A DNA stretch of 64,000 nt from Patescibacteria group bacterium (lineage in GTDB: Bacteria > Patescibacteriota > Patescibacteriia > 2-01-FULL-39-33): contig JBAZMW010000002.1 of NCBI GenBank assembly GCA_041649575.1, forward strand, positions 78,159-142,158. Reading direction: 5' to 3'. This document shows, in pieces, positions 2,887 through 57,743 of this stretch (position 1 is the first letter of the stretch; each line of letters begins with the position of its first letter). Under the pieces are notes generated by a model, which did not search any database, was not told where the DNA came from, and worked only from the letters and a program-made list of their open reading frames with translations. Position numbers and translations under genes: made by a program.

Positions 2887-3864
2887 ATGCTAGACCAAAA
2901 TATTAAAAAGTTTTTGGCTAAACTCTCGCAGTCGTTTCTTTTGTTCGCCCCGCAACCGTTGGGGAGTGTTGTTAAAATAAAGCCAGTTGCAGAGATTGGC
3001 AATATCGACTGGTCGGGCGCTATGCCGCTCAACTCCTGGAAAGAAATTTTTTTACCAGCCAGAGAAAGATTATTCGACCTAAAGAAAAATTCTTTTTTTG
3101 AGTCCAAGACGGATTATCCGGCTACCGCCTGCATTGGCATTAATGTTTTGGATTTAAAGGCCTTTACTTTATTTGAACAGGTGTTCGGCCGCGATGCTTA
3201 TTATCAACAGCGGCGTCGCAATCTGTTGCTTGTCGGCTACAGCGCCCAGTGGCCCAATGATTACAAAAAATACAAAGTTTTCAGTCATAACTGGGAAGAA
3301 GATATTTTAGAGCATCTGGTTTTTGATATTTTTATAATTCAACTGAAGAACGATAAAACCAAGATTTACTCCGGTTCAGAGAAAGGGCAATTGATTCTAG
3401 AAAAATACGGCCTGAAAAATTACACGCATTTGGAATTTGCCGGCGCTGTCAAAGAGCAAGGCCCGGATAAAAAAATGTTGGAGCTCAAGGAAAAGCTGGC
3501 TAAGGCCTCCAGCCACAAACTCTGGAACGAACTTGATAAAATTTGCCTGGCCTGCGGTAAATGCTCGATCGCTTGCCCCACTTGTTTTTGTTTTGATTTA
3601 TTTGATAAAGTCGACCCCGATAAGAATTGTCGCGAGCGTTATTGGGGCAATTGTTTTTATAACGATTTTTCCAAGGTGGCCGGCGGTTTTAAAGAGCTAG
3701 ACACAGTCAAAAAGAAGATTTATTTTTGGTATACCCACAAATTTGTCCGCATTCCGCACGAATATTCTCTGCCCGGTTGTGTCGGTTGCGGCCGTTGCAC
3801 TCGTGTTTGTCCGGTGGGAATTGATATTGCCAAAAACGTTTCTATTATCGGTAAAATCAGATAG
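2887..3864 (+). CDS. [NiFe]-hydrogenase group 3b (sulfhydrogenase-type) beta subunit, 4Fe-4S ferredoxin domain protein (HydB/AsrA-like)
   Basis: C-terminal CxxCxxCxxxCP-type motifs (CLACGKCSIACPTCFCFD; CVGCGRCTRVCPVG). Followed 6 nt later by the gamma subunit. Confidence 0.7.
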   Translation: MLDQNIKKFLAKLSQSFLLFAPQPLGSVVKIKPVAEIGNIDWSGAMPLNSWKEIFLPARERLFDLKKNSFFESKTDYPATACIGINVLDLKAFTLFEQVFGRDAYYQQRRRNLLLVGYSAQWPNDYKKYKVFSHNWEEDILEHLVFDIFIIQLKNDKTKIYSGSEKGQLILEKYGLKNYTHLEFAGAVKEQGPDKKMLELKEKLAKASSHKLWNELDKICLACGKCSIACPTCFCFDLFDKVDPDKNCRERYWGNCFYNDFSKVAGGFKELDTVKKKIYFWYTHKFVRIPHEYSLPGCVGCGRCTRVCPVGIDIAKNVSIIGKIR

Positions 3865-3869
3865 TTTCA

Positions 3870-4691
3870 ATGAACAATATTTACCAAGCTCAACCAGCCA
3901 AAATAATCAGTGTCGTTCAAGAATCTTTAGACACCAGGTTTTTTCGCTTGACCTTTGTCAACAAAAAATTACAAAAGGAGCTGGCTTTTCTGCCGGGCCA
4001 ATTCGTGCAAATCGGTTTGCCGGGCTGGGGCGAGTGTCCTATTAGCATCTGTTCTTCCCCCTCCAACGCCAATAAATTCTTTGAGTTAGCCATCAGAAAC
4101 GTCGGTACGCTGACTAATGAGCTTAGTCGGTTGAAAGCCGGGGAAATAGTGTTTATCCGCGGGCCATACGGCAACGGTTTTGATATCGATTTTTCCAAAG
4201 ATAAGCCGCTAGTGATAATCGGCGGTGGTTGCGGTTTTGTGCCACTAAGGCCACTGATTCAGGATTTTTTGGCTGGCCGTTTGTCTAGTTCCAGCCTGCA
4301 GATATTTTATGGCTGCCTCAATGAAAAAACCCTGTTGTTTAGAAAAGAATATCATCTTTGGAATCGCCGCGCCGAACTCAACATTATTTTGGAAAAGCCG
4401 TCCAGAGAATGGAAGGGCAAAAAAGGCCTGATTACAGATCTGCTGGCCCAAAAAAAGATTTCGGCCAGCTCGGTGGCTGTTCTGGTGGGCCCGCCAGTGA
4501 TGTACAGGTTTGTCATCAAGGAACTCAAAAAAAGAAATCTGAAAGATGAAAATATTTATTTGTCGCTGGAGCGGAAAATGTATTGCGGCACTGGTGTTTG
4601 CCAGCATTGTGCCATTGGCCCGTATTATGTCTGTAAAGATGGCCCGGTTTTCTCTTGGAGCCAGCTGAAAGGTTTGCCTCAAGCGATTTAA
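3870..4691 (+). CDS. [NiFe]-hydrogenase group 3b gamma subunit (FAD/NAD(P)-binding oxidoreductase with C-terminal 2Fe-2S cluster, HydG/AsrB-like)
   Basis: Ferredoxin-NADP reductase-like fold motifs (RxFS-type FAD site, GGGCG NAD site) and C-terminal CGTGVCQHCAIG Fe-S motif. Confidence 0.7.
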   Translation: MNNIYQAQPAKIISVVQESLDTRFFRLTFVNKKLQKELAFLPGQFVQIGLPGWGECPISICSSPSNANKFFELAIRNVGTLTNELSRLKAGEIVFIRGPYGNGFDIDFSKDKPLVIIGGGCGFVPLRPLIQDFLAGRLSSSSLQIFYGCLNEKTLLFRKEYHLWNRRAELNIILEKPSREWKGKKGLITDLLAQKKISASSVAVLVGPPVMYRFVIKELKKRNLKDENIYLSLERKMYCGTGVCQHCAIGPYYVCKDGPVFSWSQLKGLPQAI

Positions 4692-5395: not shown

Positions 5396-6676
5396 ATGTG
5401 CCTCACTCTGCCGGCCAAAGTTGTTAAAGTCAAAGGGTTACAAGCCGAGATTTTAGCCAGTGGCGCAAAACAAGTGGTGAAAATAGGCACTGCCGCTAAA
5501 ATTAGAGCGGGGGATTGGGTGCTTTATACCAATAATTTTTTAATAAAAAAAATCAGTCAGACTGAAGCCGAAGAAATTTCCGCCTTGCTTGGTTCCTATC
5601 AAGGCGTTACCGAAGCTAAACTAGAAAAAAAATTAAAGGACATTCTAACGGCCTCGTCCGTTCGCGATCTAAACGTCGAAGAGATTGAATATCTTTTGGG
5701 AGTTGATGGTCAAATTTCACAGGCAGCTCTTTTTTCACAGGCCAATGTGGCCAGAAAAGCCAATATCAAAGATCATATCTGTATCCATGGCATTATTGAG
5801 TTTTCCAACCACTGTCAAAACGATTGTCTTTATTGCGGCCTAAGGAGAAGTAATGACAAAGTTAGCCGTTACCGCCTGTCGCCGGAAAAAATAATCAAAA
5901 TAGCAGTGGCTGCTGTCAATAATCGCGGTTACAAGATTCTGGTCTTGCAATCGGGCGAAGACGATTATTATAGCGATGGTAAAATAGAATTAATTATAAA
6001 AGAAATAAAAAAACAGGCCAGAGTTTTCATTTATTTAAGTATTGGTGACAGAAGTGAAGCGGCTTACAAAAAATTCAAAGTTGCCGGCGCCAGCGGTGTC
6101 CTATACCGTTTTGAAACTTCCAACCCCGATATCTATGTCAGCCTGCACCCCGGCGACTCTCTGGAAAAAAGATTGGAAAATTTAGAAATGATGAGAAATC
6201 TGGGTTATGCGCTTTCCTCCGGGCCACTCATTGGCTTGCCAGCTCAAACATTAAAAGATTTGGCCAGTGATATAACACTAATGAAAAAGCTGGGTGTGTT
6301 TATGCCCTCAATGGGGCCGTTAATTCCTTCAGCCGAGACGCCGTTGGCCGGTGAAAAAAAGATTGATTTTGGCTTAGTTTTAAAAATGATTGCTGCCAGC
6401 CGTTTGGTTATGCCCAAAGCCAGAATTCCCGTTACTACTGCCATGGAGACTTTGGCGCGAGGCGAGGGAATAAGTATCGATGAAGCTAGACAGAAATGTT
6501 TTATGGCCGGCGCTAATTCCGTAATGTTGAATCTGACTCCTGAAACCCAACGGCAGAAATATTATATTTATGAAAACAAATTTTTTGATGTCGAAAAGAA
6601 ATATGAGAATTGGGGGTTGTTTAAGGGAGAATTGAGTTATCGGATGTTGGAAGAAGAGTTACGGGTCAGTATTTAA
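5396..6676 (+). CDS. Fusion protein: N-terminal HypC/HybG-like hydrogenase maturation domain plus BioB/HydE/ThiH-family radical SAM domain
   Basis: First ~75 aa MCLTLPAKVVKV...GDWVLYTNNFLIKKISQTEAEEISALL match the HypC pattern (MC[LI]x[IVL]P, GDWVLVH...EA). Downstream, IEFSNHCQNDCLYCGLRRSN has a CX3CX2C radical SAM motif closely resembling the HydE/ThiH signature. Single uninterrupted ORF. Confidence 0.65.
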   Translation: MCLTLPAKVVKVKGLQAEILASGAKQVVKIGTAAKIRAGDWVLYTNNFLIKKISQTEAEEISALLGSYQGVTEAKLEKKLKDILTASSVRDLNVEEIEYLLGVDGQISQAALFSQANVARKANIKDHICIHGIIEFSNHCQNDCLYCGLRRSNDKVSRYRLSPEKIIKIAVAAVNNRGYKILVLQSGEDDYYSDGKIELIIKEIKKQARVFIYLSIGDRSEAAYKKFKVAGASGVLYRFETSNPDIYVSLHPGDSLEKRLENLEMMRNLGYALSSGPLIGLPAQTLKDLASDITLMKKLGVFMPSMGPLIPSAETPLAGEKKIDFGLVLKMIAASRLVMPKARIPVTTAMETLARGEGISIDEARQKCFMAGANSVMLNLTPETQRQKYYIYENKFFDVEKKYENWGLFKGELSYRMLEEELRVSI

Positions 6677-7961: not shown

Positions 7962-8792
7962 TTGATTACTAATTACATGGCCAAGGCAAAAAAACCACGA
8001 TTAGCAATTATCGGCCTGACATCTTGTGAGGGCTGCCAGTTTTCCATGCTCGACAAAGGCCGGAGATTCTTGGGTTTAATGAAAAATTTTCAGGTAAAGG
8101 AATTTCGTCTAGTGGAGGATGAAAAAATGCTCGAAGAGAATTTTGACCTGTGTTTGGTTGAGGGCAACCCCGTCACCAAAGAAAACATTAGATTGCTCAA
8201 AGAAATGCGGCGGCGGTCGAAATTGTTAGTAGTTATTGGTAATTGCGCGGCTTTGGGTGGTGTCTGGGAGCTCAAAAATTATCAGAATAAGAAAAAGACC
8301 ATCAGGCAGGTTTATAAAAAAATAAAAGTAGCCAATCCTGACATTAAGGAAGTGGATAATTTTGTTAAAGTTGACTTTACCATCCCCGGTTGTCCCATAG
8401 ACGGTGAGGAGTTTATGGAGCTGGCCTATCAGCTTTTAAGTGGCCGGATTCCGAAAATCCCTCAGAATCCTGTTTGCCATGAATGTCAAACAAGAGGTTA
8501 TGAGTGTTTACTGCAGCAAGGAGAGATTTGTCTCGGGCCGATTACTCTGGGTGGTTGTCGGGCAGTGTGCCTCAAAAGCCGGCAGGCCTGCTGGGGTTGC
8601 CGTGGATTGTTTGAGGGCGCGCGAGTGGAAAATTTAATGAAGGAACTGCTGTCAAAATTTCCTCGCGAACAGGTTTATCGGGTGATGGAGGTGTTTGGAG
8701 CGAGAGATAGTATTTTGAAGGAGTTGGAACAGGAAGAAAAGCCAGCTGAAATTAAAAATGTAAAACTAAAAGTTAAAAATTCTAAAAAATAA
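7962..8792 (+). CDS. [NiFe]-hydrogenase group 3b small (delta) subunit
   Basis: N-terminal LAIIGLTSCEGCQFS Fe-S motif of NiFe small subunits / NuoB-like fold; further Cys clusters (GCPIDG, CHECQ, CLGPITLGGC). Confidence 0.7.
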   Translation: MITNYMAKAKKPRLAIIGLTSCEGCQFSMLDKGRRFLGLMKNFQVKEFRLVEDEKMLEENFDLCLVEGNPVTKENIRLLKEMRRRSKLLVVIGNCAALGGVWELKNYQNKKKTIRQVYKKIKVANPDIKEVDNFVKVDFTIPGCPIDGEEFMELAYQLLSGRIPKIPQNPVCHECQTRGYECLLQQGEICLGPITLGGCRAVCLKSRQACWGCRGLFEGARVENLMKELLSKFPREQVYRVMEVFGARDSILKELEQEEKPAEIKNVKLKVKNSKK

Positions 8793-9141: not shown

Positions 9142-10173
9142 TTGAGTTTTATGTCATTATCTAAAGCGGAGGCTAAAATTCTGCAGTCAATTATTGTGTC
9201 TTCAGAAAATAATCCCAGTCGACCAGAATTTCCGGCCGATGATCCTAAATTTCCCGCCACCCCAACTTATAAAATTAAAGTGCCAGGCTTTTCTAATGTT
9301 TGGCTCAAAGATGAAAGCCATAATCCCACCGGAACCCATAAAGATCGGATGGCTTGGGAAATAATTGTTACTTATCGTGATTTTTTATTGACCCAAAAAC
9401 GAGGGCAAATTAAAGGTATTCTACCGGCCGTGTCAATTATTTCCTCTGGATCGGCGGCTGTCGCCATCCAAACACAACTACGGAAATATCATTTGCCAAA
9501 TCTCAAAGTTTTAGTCGACTCTTATCTTAATCAGGAAATTGTAAATTCACTCAAAAAAATTGGCTGTAGAATTTATAAAACTGATTTAAGCAAAAAACCA
9601 TTTCATTGGAAGGAAATTTTAGAGTTGACTCATAATCCAAATGGTTTTGATATTACTTCTAATGAGGCTTTAGACCCGGCTATGAGATTTTATGACTGGC
9701 TAAGTTATGAGATAATTAATAATTCACCAGACTATTGTTTTATTCCTTTCGGTACCGGCAATCTTTATGAGAATATTTTGAATATTAATAAAAAAGAAGT
9801 TTCAACTAAAAATCATGACCCTCGATTCAAGGGTAAGGTTGAAATTCTTAGGAATTGTAATTTTTTTGGCGTGACGACAAATAATCCAAGATCCCGAGCC
9901 GAAAAACTTTATTCGCCTCACTTGCCTTTTGTCCATTACGATGAGCAGTGGATTAGGCTGTATCGGCATGCCGGTTATTGTGGTCCAAAATCAAATGTTT
10001 ATTTATTGAAGGAGCAATATCTTAATGAGGCAATGAAAATTGCCGTTGCTCAAAAGATAAATTATGAGCCTTCTGGTATCTCTGGACTGGCCTTGCTTCT
10101 ACAAATAAAAAATAAACTTCCTAAAAATAAGAAGATTTTAGTTATTAATACTGGGAAAACTAAATATATTTAG
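9142..10173 (+). CDS. PLP-dependent enzyme, fold type II (threonine synthase / TrpB-like superfamily), divergent
   Basis: LKDESHNPTGTHKDRMAW matches the K-x-E-x-x-NPTGSFKDR PLP-lysine motif. Gly-rich SSGSAAVA, FGTGN and C-terminal EPSGISGLA are consistent with ThrC/CysK-like folds. Confidence 0.5.
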   Translation: MSFMSLSKAEAKILQSIIVSSENNPSRPEFPADDPKFPATPTYKIKVPGFSNVWLKDESHNPTGTHKDRMAWEIIVTYRDFLLTQKRGQIKGILPAVSIISSGSAAVAIQTQLRKYHLPNLKVLVDSYLNQEIVNSLKKIGCRIYKTDLSKKPFHWKEILELTHNPNGFDITSNEALDPAMRFYDWLSYEIINNSPDYCFIPFGTGNLYENILNINKKEVSTKNHDPRFKGKVEILRNCNFFGVTTNNPRSRAEKLYSPHLPFVHYDEQWIRLYRHAGYCGPKSNVYLLKEQYLNEAMKIAVAQKINYEPSGISGLALLLQIKNKLPKNKKILVINTGKTKYI

Positions 10174-10221: not shown

Positions 10222-11520
10222 ATGCGTATCCAAATAAATCACATTGGTAAAATGGAAGGCCACACGGACTTCGTGGCCGAGATTTTGAAAGGTGATGTCA
10301 AATCAGCCAAACTGATGACCACCGAAGGTGCTCGTCTGATAGAGGGCATTTTGGTCGGCCGTAATTTTTACGAGGCGCCGATTATCACTTCTCGCATCTG
10401 TGGTATCTGCCCGGTGGTTCATAAAATTTCCTCCATTAGGGCGCTGGAGAACGCTTTAGCTATTAAGCCCAGTGAACAGACAATTAAATTAAGAAAACTA
10501 ATGCTGATGGCGCAAACCATTCATAGCCACGCCTTACATTTGTTTTTTTTGTCTTTGCCGGATTTTTTCAACCTATTGGACGACTTTAAATTTATTGCCA
10601 ACCATAAAAAAGAAACTGATTGCGCTATTAAGGTGCGTGAGTGGGCTTTGAAAGTTATTGAAACTGTTGGCGGACGGGCGGTACATCCGATTGCTTGTGA
10701 AGTTGGTGGCTTTAAGGTTTTGCCCGACAAAAAAGAATTGAAAGATTTGGCTGATCAATACGAAAACATTCTAAAACAGGCACTGTGTCTGGTGAATCTG
10801 ACTATCAAAATAAAATTTCCCAAATTTAGCCGGCCCACGACCTTCATTTCTTTGACCAATGAAAAAGAATACGCCTTTTATGATGGCGATATTAAAATTT
10901 TAAATAAAAATGGCCAGACAAGGATTATTAAGGCCAAAGATTTTACCAAGAATATTAAGGAGATCGAAGAGCCCTATCGCGCCGCCAAATCGGCTGAGTT
11001 AAAGGGTGAGCCGTTTATGGTCGGCGCTTTGGCGCGACTAAATAACAATCATAGCCAATTGAATCACTTGGCCAAGGGAATTCAAAAAGGTTTAAAATGG
11101 AAGTTCCCGCAGTATAATTCTTTTGAAAATATTACCGCCCAGGCTATTGAAATCGTCCATTGTCTAGAGGAAGCCAAAAAATTACTTGACGATTTAGTTA
11201 AAAATTTGAAAAATGAGACCAGTCAGGCCGAGAAGCTCGGCTTAATTGGTCAGGCCAATCCCTTGGGACGTGAGACAAGTGGCTGTGACGCCAGCGAGGC
11301 GCCGCGTGGCACCTTGTATCATTATTACGCCATTGATAAAGACGGCTATATCAAGGATTGTCAGATTATCACGCCGACGGTGTCTTTTTTAAAAAATTTG
11401 GAAGCAGATATTATTGCCTATATCCCGGATTTGAAAAAAATGTCGCCCGAAAAATGTTCACGCAAAATCCGCGCCCTTATTCGCGCCTATGATCCTTGTA
11501 TTAGTTGCGCCACACATTAA
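10222..11520 (+). CDS. [NiFe]-hydrogenase group 3b large (alpha) catalytic subunit; ends exactly at the C-terminal His of the DPCxxCxxH motif
   Basis: N-terminal Ni-binding motif RICGICPVVH and C-terminal DPCISCATH followed directly by a stop codon. Confidence 0.85.
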   Translation: MRIQINHIGKMEGHTDFVAEILKGDVKSAKLMTTEGARLIEGILVGRNFYEAPIITSRICGICPVVHKISSIRALENALAIKPSEQTIKLRKLMLMAQTIHSHALHLFFLSLPDFFNLLDDFKFIANHKKETDCAIKVREWALKVIETVGGRAVHPIACEVGGFKVLPDKKELKDLADQYENILKQALCLVNLTIKIKFPKFSRPTTFISLTNEKEYAFYDGDIKILNKNGQTRIIKAKDFTKNIKEIEEPYRAAKSAELKGEPFMVGALARLNNNHSQLNHLAKGIQKGLKWKFPQYNSFENITAQAIEIVHCLEEAKKLLDDLVKNLKNETSQAEKLGLIGQANPLGRETSGCDASEAPRGTLYHYYAIDKDGYIKDCQIITPTVSFLKNLEADIIAYIPDLKKMSPEKCSRKIRALIRAYDPCISCATH

Positions 11521-11558: not shown

Positions 11559-11915
11559 ATGGCATTTAGATTCGAAAGTTTGGAGATTTGGAAAGAGGCG
11601 ATTAATTTTTCTAGTTCTACTTATAAAATTACTCGTCAGTTTCCCAAAGAAGAACTGTTTAGTTTATCTAGTCAGTTAAATCGGGCTGCGATTTCTATTT
11701 CGGCTAATATAGCCGAGGGCTCGGCAAGTGATAGTGTAAAAGAGTTTAGAATGTTTCTGAATATTTCCATTAGATCTGGCGTCGAAGTAATATCTGAATT
11801 ATTTATAGCTAAAGAAAGAAGCTATTTATCAGACGAAGAATTCGGCGAGTTATACAATACTGGAGAATTATTAATAAGAAGAATTTCCTCATTTCGCAAT
11901 CAATTAAAATTATAA
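11559..11915 (+). CDS. Four-helix-bundle protein (23S rRNA intervening-sequence protein family, TIGR02436/PF05635-like)
   Basis: Signature SSQLNRAAISISANIAEGSA; 118 aa. Family is common in CPR genomes. Confidence 0.75.
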   Translation: MAFRFESLEIWKEAINFSSSTYKITRQFPKEELFSLSSQLNRAAISISANIAEGSASDSVKEFRMFLNISIRSGVEVISELFIAKERSYLSDEEFGELYNTGELLIRRISSFRNQLKL

Positions 11916-11938: not shown

Positions 11939-12193
11939 ATGCACGATTTCCACTTAGCCGACATAATCTATAAAACAATTTTAGATTACGCCCAAAAAAA
12001 TAATTTGAAAAAAATCACCAAAGCGGTGATTGATTTGGGACAGATTATTGAGCATGGTGAGGAGGTGTTGGCGGAAAATTTGGATTTTAATATCAAAATG
12101 TTGGCCCAAGGTGGCCTGGCCGAAGGCTTAGAGCTGGTTATTAACAAAACAGCCGGTGATAGCTGGGTGCTAAAGGAAATAGAAGGAGTATAA
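11939..12193 (+). CDS. HypA-like hydrogenase nickel-incorporation protein lacking the C-terminal zinc-finger domain
   Basis: N-terminus MHDFHL (the MHE Ni-binding motif of HypA) and core similarity to HypA. Protein stops where the CxxC...CxxC Zn domain normally begins. Confidence 0.5.
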   Translation: MHDFHLADIIYKTILDYAQKNNLKKITKAVIDLGQIIEHGEEVLAENLDFNIKMLAQGGLAEGLELVINKTAGDSWVLKEIEGV

Positions 12194-12202
12194 TTTATTT
12201 TT

Positions 12203-13384
12203 ATGAAAGTAAAATCAATCAGGCAATTAAAAAAATTTCAGGGCAAAAAAGTTTTGCTAAGAGTTGATTTTAATGTTTCCTTGGGAGCCAATCATAGGGT
12301 TGATAAAGCGGAAGATTACCGGATTGTCAAAACCTTGCCGACCATAAAATTTTTGACCAGTCGCGGTGCCAGAGTGATCATTATGGCCCATTTGGGCCGA
12401 CCACATGGCAAAATAGTGGAAAACTTGCGTTTAAAACCGGTAGCCGAAAAATTGTCAGAACTATTGAAGAAAAAAGTTTTGTATAGCAAAACCGTTTTAG
12501 GCGCCGAAACCAAACAATTAATCAAACAGATGAAGGCTGGCGATGTTTTAATGCTGGAAAATTTGCGTTTTGACATTCGGGAAGAGCGGGGAGACAAAAA
12601 TTTTGCTCGGCAGCTGGCGGAATTAGGCGATATCTACATCAATGAAGCTTTTGCCGACAATCACCGCCATCACGCTTCGACCGCCATCATTCAAGATTAT
12701 TTGCCGGCTTACGCTGGCCTGCTGCTGGAGCAAGAAATTCTGAATTTGACCAAAGTTCTAAAAAAACCCAAACAACCGCTGGTGGTGATAATCGGCGGTA
12801 CCAAGATGGAAACAAAAATAAGAGTTATTAAAAATTTTTCTAAAGTTGCCAAGAAAATTCTTTTGGGCGGCGCTTTGGCCAATACGGTTTTGCACGTGAT
12901 GGGCGTTAGCGTCGGCAGATCACCGGTGGAAAAATCAATGTTTTCCGAAGTCAAAAAATTTAAATTGACGGCCAATCAGATCGTGGTGCCTCTCGACGGC
13001 GTCATGGCCGCCAAAATCGACAGCCAAAAGGGCCGGATGGACGCTTTGGCAGACGTCAGAGATAATGAATTGATTTTGGATGTCGGTCCTGATACCATAA
13101 AACTCTATGAAAAAATCATCAAATCCGCTAAAATGGTAATGTGGAACGGGCCAATGGGGCTGATAGAAAATCCGGTTTTTGCCAAAGGCACCCAGGCGCT
13201 GATAAAAATTTTGGCCAATTCTTGCGCCGAAACCATCGTCGGTGGCGGCGAGACCGTGCAAATGATTCGGCAAATGAAATTAGAAAACAAATTTAATTTT
13301 GTTTCTACCGGCGGGGGAGCGATGCTGGAGTTTTTGGAGGGAAAAAAATTACCTGGGCTAAAAAAGTTGATTAAGAATTTATAA
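12203..13384 (+). CDS. pgk: Phosphoglycerate kinase
   Basis: 393 aa; motifs RVDFNVSL, MAHLGRP, GGGA..MLEFLEGKKLPG typical of PGK. Confidence 0.9.
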   Translation: MKVKSIRQLKKFQGKKVLLRVDFNVSLGANHRVDKAEDYRIVKTLPTIKFLTSRGARVIIMAHLGRPHGKIVENLRLKPVAEKLSELLKKKVLYSKTVLGAETKQLIKQMKAGDVLMLENLRFDIREERGDKNFARQLAELGDIYINEAFADNHRHHASTAIIQDYLPAYAGLLLEQEILNLTKVLKKPKQPLVVIIGGTKMETKIRVIKNFSKVAKKILLGGALANTVLHVMGVSVGRSPVEKSMFSEVKKFKLTANQIVVPLDGVMAAKIDSQKGRMDALADVRDNELILDVGPDTIKLYEKIIKSAKMVMWNGPMGLIENPVFAKGTQALIKILANSCAETIVGGGETVQMIRQMKLENKFNFVSTGGGAMLEFLEGKKLPGLKKLIKNL

Positions 13385-13390
13385 CTTTTT

Positions 13391-13428
13391 TGTCATTGCG
13401 AGCGGAGTGAAACGCAGCGAAGCAATCT
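13391..13428. repeat. Left arm of an inverted repeat flanking the GIY-YIG gene
   Basis: tgtcattgcgagcggagtgaaacgcagcgaagcaatct. Its reverse complement (with an internal ~10-nt deletion) is at 13737-13764. Confidence 0.75.
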
Positions 13429-13444
13429 TTTAGATAAGACAGAT

Positions 13445-13735
13445 ATGGCCAAATATTATTACGTTTATGTTTTGACTAATGCCAACAATTATGTTTTATA
13501 CACAGGAGTCACAAATAATTTGCAGAGAAGGTTATGGGAACACAAAAGCGGTAAGGCGGACGGTTTTACTAAAAAATATAAGTGTAAAAAATTGGTTTAT
13601 TATGAATATTCGGAGTCAATAGGCGCAGCCATAAATAGAGAAAAACAAATTAAGGCCGGCTCAAGAAAAAAGAAATTGGAATTGATAAACAATTTTAATC
13701 CGCAGTGGTTGGATTTGGGGCTGGAGATGTTTTAA
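13445..13735 (+). CDS. GIY-YIG nuclease family protein (small, 96 aa)
   Basis: YYVYVLTNANNYVLYTGVTNNLQRRLWEH carries the GIY-x10-YIG and R/E catalytic pattern. Confidence 0.8.
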   Translation: MAKYYYVYVLTNANNYVLYTGVTNNLQRRLWEHKSGKADGFTKKYKCKKLVYYEYSESIGAAINREKQIKAGSRKKKLELINNFNPQWLDLGLEMF

Positions 13736-13736
13736 G

Positions 13737-13764
13737 AGATTGCTTCGCTTTGCTCGCAATGACA
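13737..13764. repeat. Right arm of the inverted repeat flanking the GIY-YIG gene
   Basis: agattgcttcgctttgctcgcaatgaca is the reverse complement of the ends of 13391-13428. Confidence 0.75.
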
Positions 13765-13827
13765 AAATAAAACAGCCTACAATCAATGAATTAACTAAGA
13801 AAAATTAATAAATAACCAGAAATTTTT

Positions 13828-14616
13828 ATGGACGAACAAAAACTAGACTGCTGCCATAGCAGTAAATGCCATTGTGCCAAGTACGTAATTCTTGGCATCT
13901 TGGCCTTGGCCCTGATTGTTTACGTGGGCGTTTTAACCAGGAACGCCTGGCGGACTTACGATTATATCGGTAAGTCGCCCGATATTCAGGATAGGATTAC
14001 TGTCACCGGTACCGCCAAAGTCAGCGCCACGCCGGATGTGGCTGTGCTATACTTGGGAATTGTCAGCGAAGGCGCTACGGTTAATGCGGCGCAAAAAGGC
14101 GTCACCGAAAAAATGAATTCCATCATCGATTCTTTGAAAAAAGAATTTAAGATTGAGGCCAAGGATATTCAGACTCAAAATTTTAGTGTTAATCCCAAGT
14201 ACGACTGGAGCGACGGCAAGCAAAGAATTATCGGTTACAGCGCCAATCAAAGTGTTCAGGTAAAAGTCAGAGACTTTGACAAGACCGGTGATATTTTGGC
14301 CAAAGCGACCGATTTGGGCGCTAACACCGTTTCTGGTCCGAATTTTATAATCGACGATCCGGAAAAGGCCAAGGCCGAGGCCAGGGATAAAGCCATTGCC
14401 CAGGCCAAGGAAAAAGCCAGTTTGCTTGCCGATCAGGTTGGCATTAAGCTGGGCAGAATTGTTAATTTTTATGAAGGCGGCAATGAAATGCCTAATGCAG
14501 TTTACAGCCGTGATATGGCCATCGGTCTGGGTGAGACAAAGTCCGTTGCCCCGGTCATTGAACCAGGCAGCCAGGACGTGCAACTCACCGTCAGTATTAG
14601 TTATGAAATAAGATAA
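13828..14616 (+). CDS. SIMPL-domain protein (DUF541 / YggE-like) with an N-terminal Cys/His-rich segment and a TM anchor
   Basis: C-terminal KAKAEARDKAIAQAKEKASLLADQVG...VSISYEI resembles SIMPL/26 kDa periplasmic immunogenic protein. N-terminus CCHSSKCHC. Confidence 0.55.
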   Translation: MDEQKLDCCHSSKCHCAKYVILGILALALIVYVGVLTRNAWRTYDYIGKSPDIQDRITVTGTAKVSATPDVAVLYLGIVSEGATVNAAQKGVTEKMNSIIDSLKKEFKIEAKDIQTQNFSVNPKYDWSDGKQRIIGYSANQSVQVKVRDFDKTGDILAKATDLGANTVSGPNFIIDDPEKAKAEARDKAIAQAKEKASLLADQVGIKLGRIVNFYEGGNEMPNAVYSRDMAIGLGETKSVAPVIEPGSQDVQLTVSISYEIR

Positions 14617-14665
14617 CTTGTCACTTTTCTTTCTCTAGGAGAAAGAAAAGCTGATGCAAAAGAAA

Positions 14666-14754
14666 CCCGCCCGTGCCGAACGCCAGCCCGACAGATCATT
14701 CTGGCGGGGTACGTTCGGGCGGGGAGTCGCGAGCTAAATTTTCATTTAGCTCGC
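14666..14754 (+). promoter_or_regulatory. Two stable hairpins in the eno 5' region
   Basis: Hairpin 1: cccgcccg..cgaacg / cgttcgggcgggg with inner gccag/ctggc (14666-14724). Hairpin 2: perfect 11-bp stem gcgagctaaat-tttc-atttagctcgc (14729-14754). Neither is followed by a T-run. Confidence 0.4.
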
Positions 14755-14796
14755 AGGAAAAAAAATCAAAATCAAAAAAAATACTAAAACTTAATT

Positions 14797-16086
14797 ATGG
14801 CAAAAATCAAGTCAATTGCAGTGCGCGAAATTTTGGCTTCTGGCGGGGCGCCGAGTTTGGAAGCAAAAGTAATTTTAGAATCAGGGGCGACAGGAGTAGC
14901 CTCGGTCTCCTATGGAGCATCGGCCGGCAGTAAGGAAGCTTTTGTGATGCTTGACGGCGACAAAAATCGTTATAACGGCAAAGGCATGCTTAAGGCCAAA
15001 GAAAAAATCGATTTGATAATTGCTCCGGCTTTGATCGGCAAGGAGGCCAATGACCAAAGGGAGATCGACGAGCTGATGCTGCAACTGGATGGAACAATAA
15101 ACAAAGCCAATTTGGGCGGCAATTCTATTTTGGCGGTTTCGCTGGCGGTGGCCAGAGCCGCTGCCGCTGATAATGATTTACCGTTATATAAATATCTAAG
15201 AAAAGTTTTCGCTATCAGTCCAGCTTCTTTGACAAGCAACAGTTCGGAGTATTGGAAAATGCCCAAGCCGATGGTGGTAATGATCGAGGGCGGCAAACAC
15301 GCCGATGAAACCACCGACTTGCAAGAGTATTTAATTTCTTCCCTAGGCAACAGGAGCGCGGCAGAAAACGTGAGAATACAGATGGAGATTTATGAGGCCC
15401 TGAAAAAGATTCTAAAAAGAGAAGGATTGTCCACTAATGTCGGCAATGAGGGAGCTTTTGCGCCGGGCGGTATTGTTGGTAATGAAAAACCGATGGAATA
15501 TTTTGTCGAGGCCATAAAAAATGCTGGTTATACGCCCGGTGTTGATGCTGGTATTTCCATTGATGCCGCGGCCAGCGAGCTCTACAGCGAAGAAACAAAA
15601 AAGTATACCTTGGCGCTGGAGAAAAAAGAAATGACCTCGGAAGAATTAGTCGCTTATTATTTATCTTGGATAGATAAATACCCTTTCGTGTCCTGGGAAG
15701 ACATGCTCTCGGAGTTTGACTGGGAACATTGGCCAAAACTGGTGGAGGCGGTAAACAGTAAAATAATAATTATCGCCGACGATTTGACAGTGACCAATCT
15801 CAAGTTGTGGCAAAAAGCCATTGATGAAAAAGCAGCCACCGGGATTTTAATTAAGCTAAATCAGGCCGGTTCGGTGACCGAGACGGTGGATTGCTGTGTT
15901 TTGGCTCAAAAGCATGGTTTTTGGAAAGTGCCCTCTCATCGTGGCGGCGGAGAAACCAACGATACCTTTATGGTTGATTTGGCCGTAGCGGTTGGTGGTG
16001 AGTATATTAAAGTAGGCCCCACCAGAGGAGAAAGGGTTTGTAAATATAATCGGCTGATGGAGATAGAGGAGGAGATTAACGGCTAG
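14797..16086 (+). CDS. eno: Enolase
   Basis: 429 aa with canonical enolase motifs (SIAVREILASGGAPSLEAKV; LIKLNQAGSVTET; SHRGGGETND). Confidence 0.95.
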   Translation: MAKIKSIAVREILASGGAPSLEAKVILESGATGVASVSYGASAGSKEAFVMLDGDKNRYNGKGMLKAKEKIDLIIAPALIGKEANDQREIDELMLQLDGTINKANLGGNSILAVSLAVARAAAADNDLPLYKYLRKVFAISPASLTSNSSEYWKMPKPMVVMIEGGKHADETTDLQEYLISSLGNRSAAENVRIQMEIYEALKKILKREGLSTNVGNEGAFAPGGIVGNEKPMEYFVEAIKNAGYTPGVDAGISIDAAASELYSEETKKYTLALEKKEMTSEELVAYYLSWIDKYPFVSWEDMLSEFDWEHWPKLVEAVNSKIIIIADDLTVTNLKLWQKAIDEKAATGILIKLNQAGSVTETVDCCVLAQKHGFWKVPSHRGGGETNDTFMVDLAVAVGGEYIKVGPTRGERVCKYNRLMEIEEEING

Positions 16087-16123
16087 TATTAAAATATTTT
16101 TGCCTCAGTGGGTTAAGAGTTTT

Positions 16124-16169
16124 TTAAAAAAGAAAACTGCCTCATCCTGCGCGTGCGTAGGTGAGGCAG
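16124..16169 (-). terminator. Rho-independent terminator for the minus-strand gene at 16191-16631
   Basis: Stem ctgcctca...tgaggcag with the T-run on the minus strand (plus-strand aaaaaagaaaa at 16126-16136). Confidence 0.6.
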
Positions 16170-16190
16170 TCGTGAAGAACGGGTCGGCCA

Positions 16191-16631
16191 CTACTTTACG
16201 AAGTTGAAGTGGCCATAGCGCATGCCGCTGTGAAGCCACCCGACGATTGCTTCGCCCTTGTACTCGCCGTCAAGGACATGGGCCGTGAATAGCCAGGAGG
16301 CTTCCCTACGCTCTCCCAAAAAGTCCAACAGGAGACCGGTGATGCGAATCGTTACTGTTTTCAGGTTGAATTCGTCGCTGGTCGCCGTACGGATTTGCTC
16401 GTCGGTAGCGCTCAGGTTGGTCGTGGCATACTGCAGGAGGCAGTAAATCATCTGTCTACCATTGTATATCCTGAGCGAGTCTATTAGCGTCGCCTGGCCC
16501 GGACAGCTTGTCACGTGGTTTTCGAAGTGCTCCCGCTTTCTGTACTTTGAGTCGGTAAGCAGCTTTGTTAGGGCCAGCCGGACAGCCTCGTCAAGCTCCA
16601 CAAAGCAGCCATTTCGTTCATTTGTTGCCAT
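16191..16631 (-). CDS. Hypothetical protein, G+C-rich orphan gene (likely start at the second Met with a GGAGGTG Shine-Dalgarno sequence)
   Basis: ORF of about 146 aa (MATNERNGCF...) with strong RBS ggaggtgcctt-ATG. Composition is clearly G+C-richer than flanks. No recognisable domain. Confidence 0.45.
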   Translation of the reverse strand: MATNERNGCFVELDEAVRLALTKLLTDSKYRKREHFENHVTSCPGQATLIDSLRIYNGRQMIYCLLQYATTNLSATDEQIRTATSDEFNLKTVTIRITGLLLDFLGERREASWLFTAHVLDGEYKGEAIVGWLHSGMRYGHFNFVK

Positions 16632-16772
16632 AAGGCACCTCCATTTCTTGCTAACGTACACCAGTCTCACTCACAGAGGCGGAGACTTGCCTCCATATTC
16701 CGCTAGGCGGAACGACCCATCCATAAGAATGGGAATTAATATATTTTACTAAATAGAATAGTTTTTGTCAAG

Positions 16773-18341
16773 ATGGCAGTTAATAAACCAAAACAATCTA
16801 AAAAAGTGATTTTATTAATTTTAGACGGCTGGGGGATTGGCAAAAATGACGCCTCCAATCCGATTTTTTTGGTCCGGCCGAAATTCATCAATTCGCTTTA
16901 TAAGAAATACCCTCACACCCAGATTTGCGCCTCTGGCCGTTGTGCCGGGCTGCCGCCGGATCAAGTAGGTAATTCCGAGGCTGGGCACATGAACTTGGGT
17001 GCCGGACGAGTGGTCGACCAGGATGCTGTCAAAATTTCCAAACAAATAAATACCGGTGAATTTTTCAAAAACCCGGCTTTTTTGGCGGCGTTTAGCCACG
17101 TCAGAAAAAATAATTCCGCCCTGCACTTGATAGGCATGCTTTCTAACGGGCAGAGTCCGCACAGCGATCCCGATCATCTTTTGGCCCTGTTGACCATGAC
17201 GCGGAAATATAAGGTCAAAAGGATTTATCTGCATTTATTCACCGACGGACGCGATAGCCCGCAACATTCCAGTCTGAAGTCAATAATGGCCTTGGAGCGA
17301 TCTTTGAAACCTAATGAAATAATCGCCACTGTCATTGGCCGTTTTTATGCCATGGACCGCAAAAAATCATGGGACCGCACGGTGCGCTCTTATAACGCCA
17401 TGACCGCCGATCACAGCGAACATCGCGCCAATAGCCCGCAGGCCGGAATCATGCGCGCCTATAACGCCAACATTACCGATGAGTTCATAGAGCCGATTGT
17501 TATTTATCGAAAAGGAAAAATAATCAGAAGAATAAGTGACGATGACGCGATTATTTTTTTTAATTTGCGCAGCGACCGCGCCCGTCAGCTGGCCAAGCCT
17601 TTTGTCCAGCATGATTTCGAAGCAGCCAATCCCGGCTCGGAAAAATTTCCCCGCAAAGAAATCCTAAAAAATATAGTTTTTGTCGCCATGACCGATTTTG
17701 GCCCCGATTTAGATAATATCTTGACCGCCTACCCCTCCGAAGATTTAAAAAATACTTTGCCTTTTGTTTTAAAAAACAAGAAGCAGGTTTATATTGCCGA
17801 GAGCGAGAAATACGCCCACGTCACTTTCTTTTTTAATGGCGGTTATGCCGATCCGGTTGCCGGGGAAAAAAGGATAAACGTTCCTTCGCCCCGAGTCAGG
17901 TCTTATGATGCGGCTCCGGCGATGTCGACCGCGGCCATTACCAAAAAAGTTATCTCCAGCCTCAAGAGTTACGATTTTATTTGCGCCAATTTTGCGTGTC
18001 CGGATATGATTGGCCATACCGGCAATCTGCTGGCGGCCAAGCAAACAGTCAAAGCGGTTGACGGCTATCTAAAAAAGGTGGTTTCCGCTTGCCTGAAACA
18101 GCAGGCAACCTTGATCATTACAGCCGATCATGGTAATATAGAGTACATGCGCAATCTTGATACCGACGAAGTTGTTACCGAGCATACCACCAATCCGGTG
18201 CCCTTTATTGTTATCAATAAAAATTTTAACAGAAACAGTCATTTGAAAAAGGGCGGATTTTTGGGTAATGTGGCGCCTACGATTCTAAAATTACTTGGCA
18301 TCAAAAAGCCAAAAGAAATGACCAAAGACAGCCTGATTTAA
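16773..18341 (+). CDS. gpmI: 2,3-bisphosphoglycerate-independent phosphoglycerate mutase, copy 1
   Basis: LILDGWG, GNSEAGH (phospho-Ser site), GRFYAMDRD, PDMIGHTG, TADHGN motifs. Confidence 0.9.
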   Translation: MAVNKPKQSKKVILLILDGWGIGKNDASNPIFLVRPKFINSLYKKYPHTQICASGRCAGLPPDQVGNSEAGHMNLGAGRVVDQDAVKISKQINTGEFFKNPAFLAAFSHVRKNNSALHLIGMLSNGQSPHSDPDHLLALLTMTRKYKVKRIYLHLFTDGRDSPQHSSLKSIMALERSLKPNEIIATVIGRFYAMDRKKSWDRTVRSYNAMTADHSEHRANSPQAGIMRAYNANITDEFIEPIVIYRKGKIIRRISDDDAIIFFNLRSDRARQLAKPFVQHDFEAANPGSEKFPRKEILKNIVFVAMTDFGPDLDNILTAYPSEDLKNTLPFVLKNKKQVYIAESEKYAHVTFFFNGGYADPVAGEKRINVPSPRVRSYDAAPAMSTAAITKKVISSLKSYDFICANFACPDMIGHTGNLLAAKQTVKAVDGYLKKVVSACLKQQATLIITADHGNIEYMRNLDTDEVVTEHTTNPVPFIVINKNFNRNSHLKKGGFLGNVAPTILKLLGIKKPKEMTKDSLI

Positions 18342-18353
18342 AATTTATTTTTT

Positions 18354-57401: not shown

Positions 57402-57743
57402 ATGCCAGACGCCTTTTCTACAAATTTTAATCGTTTTTTGGATGACGGCCTGAAGATCGTTGCCAATTGCCCGGTTTGCCATTATCATTACAACCCGGGT
57501 GAAGCCAAAGTCTTGGAAGAGAATGAGGGGGCTCACTTGATTTATCTCAAATGTCGTCGTTGTTATTCGGCAATTCTGGTTTTAATAATGGCCAATAATT
57601 TTGGCATTAGTTCGGTGGGCTTGATCACCGACTTGGACAGTCACGAAGTGATGAAGTTTAAAGCCGCCAAAGAAACAAACAGCGACGACGTCTTGTCTGT
57701 TCATCAGCTTTTAGAAAATAATTCTTCCGGCTGGTTTGGCTAG
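57402..57743 (+). CDS. Hypothetical zinc-ribbon protein (CPVCH...CRRC)
   Basis: Two CxxC pairs spaced as in Zn ribbons; 113 aa. Confidence 0.35.
   Translation: MPDAFSTNFNRFLDDGLKIVANCPVCHYHYNPGEAKVLEENEGAHLIYLKCRRCYSAILVLIMANNFGISSVGLITDLDSHEVMKFKAAKETNSDDVLSVHQLLENNSSGWFG

What the first reader, a model, noticed from the sequence alone, without database searches (positions are those of the whole stretch)
11939..12193. HypA-like protein lacking the zinc-finger domain
The 84-aa ORF starts MHDFHL, analogous to the MHE nickel-binding N-terminus of HypA, and follows the HypA core. It stops where the CxxC...CxxC zinc module that mediates HypB/large-subunit contacts would begin. Its position directly downstream of the large subunit, after an inserted four-helix-bundle gene, supports a role in Ni delivery without a HypB partner. 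No HypB is in the window.
Basis: partly seen in the sequence, partly recalled or inferred. Interest (0 to 1): 0.5.

Follow-up and report, generated by a model that had tools for sequence, protein, structure and literature searches.

The report
Mini HypA without its zinc finger
This small gene next to a nickel-iron hydrogenase encodes a nickel-chaperone (HypA) relative that keeps the whole nickel-binding domain but has lost the zinc finger reviews call universal, and it is conserved across many ultra-small (CPR/Patescibacteria) bacteria with no HypB partner gene found nearby.

Summary
The 84-aa ORF at 11939..12193 (+) is real, conserved and under purifying selection (dN/dS about 0.1). It is a true HypA relative. 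It passes the Pfam HypA threshold, its family profile hits T. kodakarensis HypA at E=7.5e-8, and its AlphaFold model (pLDDT 93) matches only HypA structures (TM 0.82).

The protein is not cut off where the zinc module begins. The module is excised internally and the last beta-strand of the nickel domain is kept.

The family is found in at least 87 Patescibacteria species genomes, almost always just after a group 3b [NiFe]-hydrogenase large subunit that has no C-terminal extension. Its hallmarks are MHD (not MHE), His5 and an inserted E-H-G-E hairpin. His39 is present in 235 of 236 sequences, on the loop that supplies the nickel ligand Asp40 in H. pylori HypA.

No HypB of either type, SlyD or split zinc domain is encoded in the window or in 84 related loci. 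Absence from the whole genome could not be tested.

A second zinc-less class (80 aa, MHE) leads complete hypABFCDE operons in Aquicella and a spirochaete. So losing the zinc finger does not by itself mean independence from HypB.

Verdict: a new variant of a known kind. Side finding: HypC is fused to the [FeFe]-type maturase HydE here, and to HydE plus HydG in relatives.

The parts
11939..12193 (+). Mini-HypA, 84 aa: the complete HypA nickel-binding domain with no zinc finger
   Evidence: ORF. Pfam HypA at E=6.5e-7. Family profile against PDB 3a43 at E=7.5e-8. AF2 pLDDT 93.1. Foldseek top 14 hits are all HypA, TMq 0.82. dN/dS about 0.1.
11939..11953 (+). N-terminal M1-H2-D3-F4-H5: variant of the MHE nickel motif plus an extra His5
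   Evidence: All 82 related loci start MHD[FLW]H. H2 and D3 are in 236/236 of sequences that were selected for containing MHD, and H5 in 204/236. Only 3 in-frame codons lie between the upstream stop and the ATG.
12050..12061 (+). E38-H39-G40-E41: a four-residue lineage-specific insertion forming a hairpin tip in the beta1-alpha2 loop; proposed second nickel-ligand element
   Evidence: The insertion is seen relative to T. kodakarensis HypA and canonical HypAs. H39 is in 235/236 and E38 in 219/236 sequences. DSSP shows a hairpin at 37-38/41-42. Members lacking H5 carry more His in this loop on average. This is the loop of the H. pylori Ni ligand Asp40 (PMC7055735).
12146..12163 (+). Residues 70-75 (K-T-A-G-D-S): a short turn at the place where canonical HypA carries its roughly 40-residue CxxC...CxxC zinc module
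   Evidence: Alignment A3 shows a gap of about 40 columns exactly here in both zinc-less classes. The model has a 5-residue turn between strands 65-70 and 76-83.
12164..12187 (+). Residues 76-83 (WVLKEIEG): the last strand of the nickel domain, which follows the zinc module in canonical HypA
   Evidence: It aligns with the C-terminal '...L.I..IE.E' of E. coli and other HypAs. The Foldseek alignment to 3a43_B spans 115 columns, bridging the zinc domain.
10222..11520 (+). Group 3b [NiFe]-hydrogenase large subunit, the presumed client. It ends at ...DPCISCATH-stop, with no C-terminal extension
   Evidence: NiFeSe_Hases and ShyA/HydA-like matches. Both Cys motifs are present in the translation. 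All 78 related large subunits also end at the His.
7962..8792 (+). Group 3b hydrogenase small (delta) subunit
   Evidence: Oxidored_q6, ShyD/HydD-like.
2887..4691 (+). Beta (4Fe-4S) and gamma (FAD/NAD, 2Fe-2S) subunits of the 3b enzyme
   Evidence: Fer4_22; FAD_binding_6, NAD_binding_1 and DHODB_Fe-S_bind.
5396..6676 (+). HypC (residues 1-65, starting MCLTLP) fused to a HydE-type radical SAM domain; the only other maturation gene in the window
   Evidence: HupF_HypC at 50 bits; TIGR03956 HydE at 257 bits (cut-off 254.6). 16 such fusions occur in related loci.
11559..11915 (+). 23S rRNA-intervening-sequence-type four-helix-bundle gene inserted between the large subunit and mini-HypA. Not conserved at this position
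   Evidence: PF05635 at E=8e-31, TIGR02436. Homologues of this gene occur in only 11 of the 82 loci. In 27 loci HypA starts within 20 nt of the large-subunit stop.

Best explanation
The gene encodes a minimal HypA: the alpha/beta nickel-binding domain alone, with the zinc-finger module excised. It acts as the nickel metallochaperone dedicated to the group 3b [NiFe]-hydrogenase large subunit encoded just upstream.

**Shown**
- Homology to HypA and the same fold.
- Internal deletion of the zinc module.
- Strong conservation and purifying selection.
- Tight synteny with the large subunit across Patescibacteria.

**Inferred**
- Ni(II) is held by the N-terminal amine and His2, as in HypA, together with the near-invariant His39 and neighbouring carboxylates Glu38/Glu41 at the tip of a lineage-specific hairpin, and usually His5.
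- This would give one domain a permanent multi-imidazole site. It would replace the site that T. kodakarensis HypA forms only when HypB pushes His98 towards the N-terminus.
- The protein then docks on the N-terminal tail of the immature large subunit and hands over nickel.
- The large subunit has no C-terminal extension, so no nickel-dependent proteolytic checkpoint follows.
- HypB is probably not part of this system. This is the weakest step.
For: **Homology**
- Pfam HypA at E=6.5e-7, above the gathering score.
- The family profile hits T. kodakarensis HypA at E=7.5e-8.

**Fold**
- The AF2 model has pLDDT 93.1 and pTM 0.81, with helix-strand-helix-strand-strand order.
- The Foldseek top 14 hits are all HypA: 3a43_B at TMq 0.82, and 5aun and 5yxy at 30-32% identity. 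The next hit has probability 0.25.

**Excision of the zinc module**
- Alignment A3 shows it.

**Real gene**
- 132 clusters, nearly all of 84 aa.
- 87 species genomes.
- Lengths of 79-88 aa in all 82 loci.
- dN/dS of 0.08-0.11.

**Client**
- A 3b large subunit lies upstream on the same strand in 78 of 82 loci.

**Metal site**
- H39 is present in 235/236 sequences, E38 in 93%, H5 in 86%, N47 in 98% and N51 in 95%.
- All 204 sequences with H5 have exactly one loop His.
- 14 of the 32 sequences without H5 have 2-6 loop His, in loops lengthened to as many as 24 residues (examples).
- The loop is the one bearing Asp40, a Ni ligand in H. pylori HypA. His98 completes the nanomolar site in the T. kodakarensis HypAB complex. 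The HyhL N-terminal tail contacts the Ni site of HypA (PMC7055735).

**No partner genes found**
- A HypB GTPase HMM gives no hit at E<=1.
- E. coli Mrp and MinD give no hit at E<=0.01. Mrp finds T. kodakarensis ATPase-type HypB 3vx3 at 9e-34, which validates the seed.
- SlyD gives no hit.
- These searches covered the window plus 84 CPR loci.
- Locus L087 has hypC, hypD, hypE, hypF and the mini-HypA around the hydrogenase genes, but no hypB.
Against: - The closeness of His39 to the N-terminus is inferred from topology and from the H. pylori Asp40 precedent.
- Only +-10 kb per locus and 64 kb of the window were searched. A hypB gene elsewhere in these roughly 1 Mb genomes cannot be excluded.
- The 80-aa zinc-less class sits next to hypB, so a zinc-less HypA can evidently belong to a HypB system.
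- The H5/loop-His compensation statistic is not corrected for phylogeny.
- Asp replaces the Glu3 of the canonical motif, and the effect of this is unknown.
- NCBIfam HypA equivalog models score far below their cut-offs (32 bits against 146). This is expected for a half-length protein, but it means the protein is not a standard family member.
Confidence: 0.6

Rival explanations
1. It is an ordinary HypA in function. It receives nickel from a HypB (GTPase or Mrp/MinD type) encoded elsewhere in the genome, as the 80-aa zinc-less HypAs presumably do. The zinc finger is simply dispensable, and the His39 hairpin is a contact or ligand element within a normal HypA-HypB relay.
For: - Zinc-less 80-aa HypAs are the first gene of hypA-hypB-hypF-hypC-hypD-hypE operons in Aquicella lusitana (L084) and a Spirochaetota MAG (L085).
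- Some CPR lineages keep canonical HypF, HypD and HypE, so canonical machinery is not foreign to the group.
- Only a small part of each genome was visible.
Against: - No HypB of either type was found in the window or in 84 loci, about 1.2 Mb in all.
- This includes L087, where every other hyp gene is clustered with the hydrogenase.
- hypA and hypB are adjacent in the two class II operons examined here (L084, L085).
- The CPR class has gained extra conserved His/Glu ligand candidates that the HypB-associated 80-aa class lacks.
Confidence: 0.3
2. It is no longer a nickel carrier. It is a HypA-derived assembly factor, or a loosely bound subunit, that holds the N-terminal tail of the large subunit open or closed. 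This would stand in for the missing C-terminal extension and protease checkpoint, and the conserved His/Glu residues would serve protein contacts.
For: - All 78 associated large subunits lack the C-terminal extension.
- The gene is translationally close to the large subunit.
- In the T. kodakarensis complex the HypA nickel domain binds the HyhL N-terminal tail (PMC7055735).
Against: - M1-H2 is retained in all 82 related loci, with the start codon fixed at the N-terminus as a nickel-amine ligand requires.
- Loop variants are His-rich stretches typical of metal binding, not of an interface.
- Aquicella has a zinc-less HypA together with a large subunit followed by a HycI protease. The two traits are therefore not linked in general.
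Confidence: 0.07
3. It is a decaying remnant of hypA (a truncated pseudogene) with no function. Nickel enters the enzyme unaided.
For: - It is half the normal length.
- High nickel is known to bypass HypA/HypB in laboratory strains (PMC12134894).
Against: - Length is conserved at 79-88 aa across 82 loci, down to about 40% identity.
- Residues are invariant and dN/dS is about 0.1.
- The fold is complete and predicted with high confidence.
Confidence: 0.02

Closest known systems
HypA/HybF nickel metallochaperone (Pfam PF01155; T. kodakarensis HypA PDB 3A43, 5AUN, 5YXY; H. pylori HypA 2KDX, 6G81; E. coli HypA)
   Same: - N-terminal Met-His-acidic motif.
- Same alpha/beta nickel-binding domain: two helices packed on a three-stranded sheet whose last strand comes from the C-terminus (TMq 0.82 to 3a43_B).
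- Conserved Gly34.
- Encoded with [NiFe]-hydrogenase genes.
   Different: - No zinc module and no cysteine at all.
- MHD instead of MHE.
- His5.
- A four-residue E-H-G-E insertion, longer and His-rich in some members, in the beta1-alpha2 loop.
- 84 aa against 110-140 aa.
- No hypB next to it.
- Reviews state that all HypA proteins have both metal sites (PMC7055735; PMC13202556).
80-aa zinc-less HypA, 'class II' (e.g. Aquicella lusitana LR699114.1, Spirochaetota and Gemmataceae MAGs). Named HypA by annotation pipelines; I found no description of the architecture
   Same: The zinc module is excised at the same junction, and the same N- and C-terminal segments are kept (alignment A3).
   Different: - Canonical MHE.
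- No His5, no loop insertion and no loop His.
- First gene of complete hypA-B-F-C-D-E operons.
- The associated enzymes are a 3b hydrogenase with a HycI protease (Aquicella) and a HoxH-type enzyme (spirochaete).
T. kodakarensis HypA-HypB(ATPase) nickel site (PDB 5AUN)
   Same: Works like: a nickel site built from the N-terminal amine and His2 plus one further imidazole. That imidazole is His98 in T. kodakarensis and, in my proposal, His39 here.
   Different: - In T. kodakarensis the extra His comes from the zinc-domain side and is brought in only by ATP-bound HypB (PMC7055735).
- Here it would be built into the nickel domain and no HypB gene is nearby.
- Not tested structurally.
His-rich nickel-binding stretches of HypB (B. 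japonicum type) and UreE (K. aerogenes)
   Same: Some family members carry loops such as HIDESHAGHDHHSLHE or IHNHKHDNQDNSCH. These resemble nickel-storing His-rich tracts (PMC7055735, PMC12134894).
   Different: They sit inside a HypA-domain loop rather than at a terminus of a GTPase or of UreE. The window's own protein has only the short EHGE form.

Membership tests
HypA/HybF (PF01155) | Significant match to the family profile | tested here: met
   Pfam at 29.8 bits against a gathering score of 28.9, E=6.5e-7, covering profile positions 1-69 of 112 only. The family profile against T. kodakarensis HypA gives E=7.5e-8. NCBIfam full-length equivalogs are not reached (32 against 146 bits).
HypA/HybF (PF01155) | N-terminal MHE nickel motif beginning at residue 1 | tested here: inconclusive
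   Met1-His2 are present at the true N-terminus. Residue 3 is Asp, not Glu, in all 82 related loci and in all 236 sequences, which were selected for MHD. The conservative change may or may not preserve the site.
HypA/HybF (PF01155) | Alpha/beta nickel-binding domain fold | tested here: met
   AF2 pLDDT 93.1. The Foldseek top 14 hits are all HypA chains, TMq 0.70-0.82, probability 1.00.
HypA/HybF (PF01155) | Zinc-binding module with two CxxC motifs | tested here: not met
   There is no Cys in the protein. Alignment shows a gap of about 40 columns where the module sits. No separate zinc-domain ORF is in the window; the best hit is the DnaJ zinc finger at E=0.14.
HypA/HybF (PF01155) | Genetic association with a [NiFe]-hydrogenase | tested here: met
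   A 3b large subunit lies directly upstream in 78 of 82 loci.
HypA/HybF (PF01155) | Works with a HypB NTPase partner | tested here: inconclusive
   No GTPase-type or Mrp/MinD-type HypB is in the window or in 84 loci.
HypA/HybF (PF01155) | Binds Ni(II) and delivers it to the large subunit | not testable with these tools
   Needs biochemistry.
Group 3b [NiFe]-hydrogenase (client enzyme) | Large subunit with RxCGxCxxxH and DPCxxCxxH motifs, plus delta, beta and gamma subunits | tested here: met
   RICGICPVVH and DPCISCATH are in the translation. ShyA/HydA, ShyD/HydD, Fer4_22 and FAD/NAD/2Fe-2S families match. Atypical feature: no C-terminal extension.

The most novel reading that the evidence does not exclude
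Patescibacteria mature their 3b [NiFe]-hydrogenase by a rewired minimal pathway.
- A self-sufficient one-domain HypA inserts nickel with no HypB, no SlyD and no proteolytic checkpoint. Its site would use the N-terminal amine and His2 plus the built-in His39/His5.
- In part of the lineages, the window's included, the iron-carbonyl/cyanide unit is supplied not by HypD/E/F but by the [FeFe]-type radical SAM maturases HydE, with or without HydG, physically fused to HypC.

This would be the first bridge between the [FeFe] and [NiFe] maturation systems.
Probability: 0.2. Interest if true: 0.9.

Novelty: new variant of a known kind. Interest (0 to 1): 0.58.

Why it matters
Current reviews say every HypA has two metal sites, and they treat the zinc module as structurally essential and needed for partner contacts. 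Here two natural classes lack it, one of them in a cultured bacterium.

These classes are ready-made tests of what the zinc domain and HypB actually contribute. The CPR class adds its own candidate ligands, His39 and His5. If those make a high-affinity site without HypB, it would be the simplest known nickel-insertion system and a useful part for heterologous hydrogenase production.

The finding also matters for annotation. IMG labels these proteins 'Zn finger protein HypA/HybF', and NCBI labels many of them 'hypothetical'.

Finally, it matters for judging whether the widely reported CPR 3b hydrogenases can be matured at all in such reduced genomes.

Tried and rejected
- **C-terminal truncation reading.** Rejected. 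The last strand is present.
- **Zinc domain as a separate ORF.** A HypA zinc-module HMM built from 59 canonical HypAs found nothing significant in the window. The best hit was the DnaJ zinc finger at E=0.14. The only other CxxC...CxxC ORFs are the small subunit and a 113-aa ORF at 57402..57743, which scored E=5.3.
- **HypB, HypD, HypE, HypF and HycI in the window.** E. coli queries found only HypA and HypC.
- **HypB in the window and 84 CPR loci.** A HypB HMM, E. coli Mrp and MinD, and SlyD gave no hits.
- **Pseudogene or relic.** Rejected by dN/dS and conservation.
- **Primary papers on the HypA-HyhL and HypAB structures (PMC6142260, PMC4485131).** They are not held, so I relied on reviews.
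- **Literature search for zinc-less HypA.** It returned only botanical 'hypanthium' noise.
- **Searches for HydG/HydE/HypC in CPR.** They found nothing relevant.
- **The listing of cluster members.** It gave no organism names for the 80-aa class. Names came instead.
- **H. pylori-style pH-sensing zinc site and UreE partnership.** Not applicable: there is no zinc site, and no UreE was seen in the proteins I scanned.
- **Model coordinates.** They were not obtainable, so the distance from His39 to the N-terminus could not be measured.

Full report
**1. The observation**

The stop-to-stop frame opens only three codons before the ATG, so Met1 is the true N-terminus. This matters for a protein family that binds nickel through its N-terminal amine. 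The protein contains no cysteine.

**2. Is it HypA?**

- Pfam HypA (PF01155) matches at E=6.5e-7 and 29.8 bits, just above the gathering score of 28.9. The match covers residues 1-73 against profile positions 1-69 of 112.
- NCBIfam HypA models match the same half at about 1e-7, far below their full-length cut-offs.
- A profile of 28 family members hits T. kodakarensis HypA (PDB 3A43, 5AUN, 5YXY) at E=7.5e-8.
- An AlphaFold2 model built on that alignment is confident, with mean pLDDT 93.1 and pTM 0.81. Its elements are helix 5-20, strand 26-33, a small hairpin at 37-42, helix 45-56, strand 65-70 and strand 76-83.
- Foldseek against the PDB returns HypA chains as the first 14 hits. The best is 3a43_B at TMq 0.82, and the next hit has probability 0.25.

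The similarity therefore extends over the whole protein, not just three residues.

**3. Excised, not truncated**

- The best Foldseek alignment spans 115 columns of a 118-residue HypA chain.
- A MAFFT alignment with E. coli HypA and eight other canonical HypAs (A3) puts residues 1-70 on the N-terminal part. It puts residues 71-84 (TAGDSWVLKEIEGV) on the C-terminal 'sGdE..i..iEvE' strand that follows the second CxxC.
- About 40 columns holding CxxC...CxxC are a gap.

The nickel domain of HypA is built from both ends of the chain, with the zinc module as an insert. No separate zinc-domain ORF exists in the window.

**4. A real and widespread family**

- The large protein database holds 132 clusters (at 90% identity), nearly all exactly 84 aa. 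They come from Patescibacteria, many of them Candidatus Buchananbacteria. NCBI names some HypA and some 'hypothetical'. IMG calls them 'Zn finger protein HypA/HybF'.
- A profile search of 1.8 billion representatives finds 165 clusters at 50% identity. Most are 79-95 aa and align end to end.
- A scan of one genome per GTDB species finds it in 87 genomes. By record title these include Buchanan-, Falkow-, Uhr-, Kuenen-, Komeili- and Wildermuthbacteria and Parcubacteria. Some TPA assemblies carry placeholder titles.
- In all 82 loci examined the product is 79-88 aa and starts MHD[FLW]H.
- Against relatives of 73-80% identity, pN is 0.14-0.16 and pS is 0.65-1.0. Where dS is not saturated, dN/dS is 0.08-0.11.

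**5. Lineage-specific features**

In 236 unique sequences (selected for containing MHD) the residue frequencies are:

| Residue | Frequency |
|---|---|
| H2, D3, G34 | invariant |
| H39 | 235/236 |
| N47 | 98% |
| N51 | 95% |
| E38 | 93% |
| H5, G40, W76 | 86% |

- Relative to T. kodakarensis HypA the family has a four-residue insertion in the beta1-alpha2 loop. E38-H39-G40-E41 forms the tip of a small hairpin there.
- This is the loop that carries Asp40 in H. pylori HypA. By NMR and DFT, Asp40 is a nickel ligand together with the N-terminal amine, His2 and Glu3 (PMC7055735; positions checked).
- All 204 sequences with His5 have exactly one loop His. Of the 32 without His5, 14 have two to six His in loops lengthened to as many as 24 residues, for example HIDESHAGHDHHSLHE. 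The Mann-Whitney test gives p=2.5e-18, but the sequences are related, so this is indicative only.
- This pattern is what one expects if His5 and the loop His residues serve one metal site next to the N-terminus.

**6. Context**

The window carries these genes, in order:

1. beta and gamma subunits (2887..4691)
2. a small methyltransferase
3. a HypC-HydE fusion (5396..6676)
4. a CDP-alcohol phosphatidyltransferase, on the opposite strand
5. a membrane protein
6. the small subunit (7962..8792)
7. a 106-aa ORF
8. a PLP enzyme
9. the large subunit (10222..11520)
10. an IVP four-helix-bundle gene
11. the mini-HypA
12. pgk

Across the 82 loci:

- The large subunit precedes the mini-HypA on the same strand in 78. 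The gap is 20 nt or less in 27 and 200 nt or less in 44. Larger gaps hold IVP or methyltransferase insertions.
- pgk follows in 56.
- Every one of the 78 large subunits ends at the His of DPCxxCxxH, with no C-terminal extension. No endopeptidase gene was found.

**7. Partner genes**

- E. coli HypA-F and HycI queries against all six frames of the window find only the mini-HypA and the HypC domain.
- A HypB HMM (E. coli, Aquicella and spirochaete sequences) finds nothing at E<=1 in 10,132 ORF segments from the window plus 84 CPR loci.
- E. coli Mrp detects the archaeal ATPase-type HypB 3VX3 at 9e-34. Mrp and MinD find nothing in those segments, and neither does SlyD.
- HypF occurs in three loci (L061, L086, L087), and HypD and HypE in one (L087).
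- L087 is telling. beta, gamma, hypC, hypD, hypE, hypF, the small subunit, the large subunit and an 88-aa MHD/EHG mini-HypA all lie within 12 kb, yet there is still no hypB.
- Whole genomes could not be searched. Genome-wide absence is not shown.

**8. A second zinc-less class changes the logic**

- The representative search also found many 80-aa proteins with canonical MHE, no loop insertion and no CxxC.
- A profile of them retrieves about 60 clusters of 80-85 aa. These include Aquicella lusitana (a cultured gammaproteobacterium) and Spirochaetota and Gemmataceae MAGs.
- In Aquicella the gene heads hypA-hypB-hypF-hypC-hypD-hypE. That operon is followed by a 3b hydrogenase, HycI and NicO.
- In a spirochaete the gene heads the same hyp operon beside a HoxH-type enzyme.

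The zinc finger has therefore been lost more than once, and at least one class keeps HypB as a neighbour. Loss of the zinc module alone does not argue for HypB independence. What argues for it in the CPR class is the added His/Glu hairpin plus the consistent lack of hypB near otherwise complete clusters.

**9. Proposed mechanism**

Shown:
- It is a one-domain HypA under selection, tied to a 3b large subunit.

Inferred:
- It binds Ni(II) with the N-terminal amine, His2 and His39, helped by His5 and Glu38/Glu41.
- This is a built-in version of the amine/His2/His98 site that T. kodakarensis HypA forms only in the HypB complex (PMC7055735).
- It docks on the N-terminal tail of the immature large subunit, as in the HyhL-HypA complex (PMC7055735, PMC12134894), and releases nickel to the active-site cysteines.
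- With no C-terminal extension, closure needs no protease.

I put about 0.85 on 'HypA-derived nickel-domain protein serving this hydrogenase' and about 0.4 on 'without HypB'. The combined statement gets 0.6. The main rival is a canonical relay with a distant hypB, at 0.3.

**10. Comparison with what is known, and novelty**

- I found no paper describing a zinc-less HypA.
- The protein meets the profile, fold and synteny criteria of HypA. It fails the zinc-module criterion and carries MHD instead of MHE.
- I therefore file it as a new variant of a known kind, not a standard member.

**11. Side finding**

- The window's HypC (MCLTLP...) is fused to a HydE-type radical SAM domain (TIGR03956, 257 bits against a cut-off of 254.6).
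- Sixteen such fusions occur in related loci.
- In six loci the gene after the fusion is a bona fide HydG. The three scanned against TIGR03955 score 592-613 bits against a cut-off of 312. All six carry both CX3CX2C and the C-terminal CX2CX22C motif.
- In L050 all three parts are one 886-aa protein, HypC-HydE-HydG.
- No [FeFe]-hydrogenase signature motif occurs in any locus.
- In 45 loci where the region is fully visible, 25 have HypC alone, 8 have HypC-HydE (as in the window), 5 have HypC-HydE plus HydG, and 7 have none.
- HypD and HypE were seen only in L087, which has a plain HypC and no HydE/G.
- This hints that [FeFe]-type maturases feed a [NiFe] enzyme in some CPR bacteria. I found no literature on it. 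It needs whole-genome and biochemical tests.

**12. Limits**

- No coordinates, no multimer model and no biochemistry were available.
- Only local genome context could be examined.
- Several MAG titles are placeholders.

Noticed in passing
window 5396-6676 (+); L006 4654-7282; L064 3515-6224; L052 4523-7202; L050 1036-3693: The [NiFe] chaperone HypC (N-terminal MCLTxP) is fused to a HydE-type radical SAM maturase. In six related loci a true HydG follows (CX3CX2C plus C-terminal CX2CX22C; the three scanned against TIGR03955 score about 600 bits). In L050 all three form one 886-aa protein. These are [FeFe]-type maturases inside a [NiFe] operon, with no HypD/E/F within 10 kb of these loci. No literature was found.
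   Followed up: partly
window 10222-11520 (+) and 78 related loci: Every associated group 3b large subunit ends exactly at the His of DPCxxCxxH. There is no C-terminal extension and no endopeptidase gene nearby. By contrast, the Aquicella 3b large subunit gene is followed by a HycI protease gene.
   Followed up: partly
L084 10001-10243 (Aquicella lusitana LR699114.1); L085 10001-10243 (Spirochaetota MAG): A second, independent-looking class of zinc-less HypA exists. It is 80 aa, has canonical MHE and no loop insertion, and is the first gene of complete hypA-B-F-C-D-E operons. About 60 clusters are known, and Gemmataceae is also represented.
   Followed up: partly
window 9142-10173 (+): A PLP-dependent (PALP family) enzyme gene sits between the small- and large-subunit genes. 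It has weak threonine-synthase/cysteine-synthase-like matches only, and no homologue in any of the other 84 loci. It looks like an insertion specific to this genome.
   Followed up: partly
window 11559-11915 (+) and 4695-5207 (+); e.g. L004 (two IVP copies), L008, L011, L026: Small 23S-rRNA-IVP-type four-helix-bundle genes and small methyltransferase genes are inserted at varying points of the hydrogenase operon in different genomes, often between the large subunit and the mini-HypA. This suggests mobile or hitch-hiking genes.
   Followed up: no
window 12203-19949 (+): The hydrogenase operon runs straight into lower-glycolysis genes: pgk, enolase and two tandem cofactor-independent phosphoglycerate mutase paralogues (enolase and the mutases assigned from Pfam annotation of the syntenic relative). 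pgk follows the mini-HypA in 56 of 82 loci. The conserved link between the hydrogenase and glycolysis was not explored.
   Followed up: no
L061 5626-7824 (-); L086; L087: Some Patescibacteria keep HypF, and one locus keeps HypC, D and E. The closest non-CPR relatives of this HypF are from DPANN (Woesearchaeota, Altiarchaeales) and Thermoplasmatota archaea. This hints at an archaeal origin of the CPR hyp and 3b genes.
   Followed up: no
P0165, P0168, P0171, P0178, P0181, P0183, P0189, P0264 (representative search): Family members lacking His5 often have the beta1-alpha2 loop expanded into His/Asp/Glu-rich tracts of up to about 40 residues, reminiscent of the nickel-storage tracts of HypB and UreE.
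   Followed up: partly
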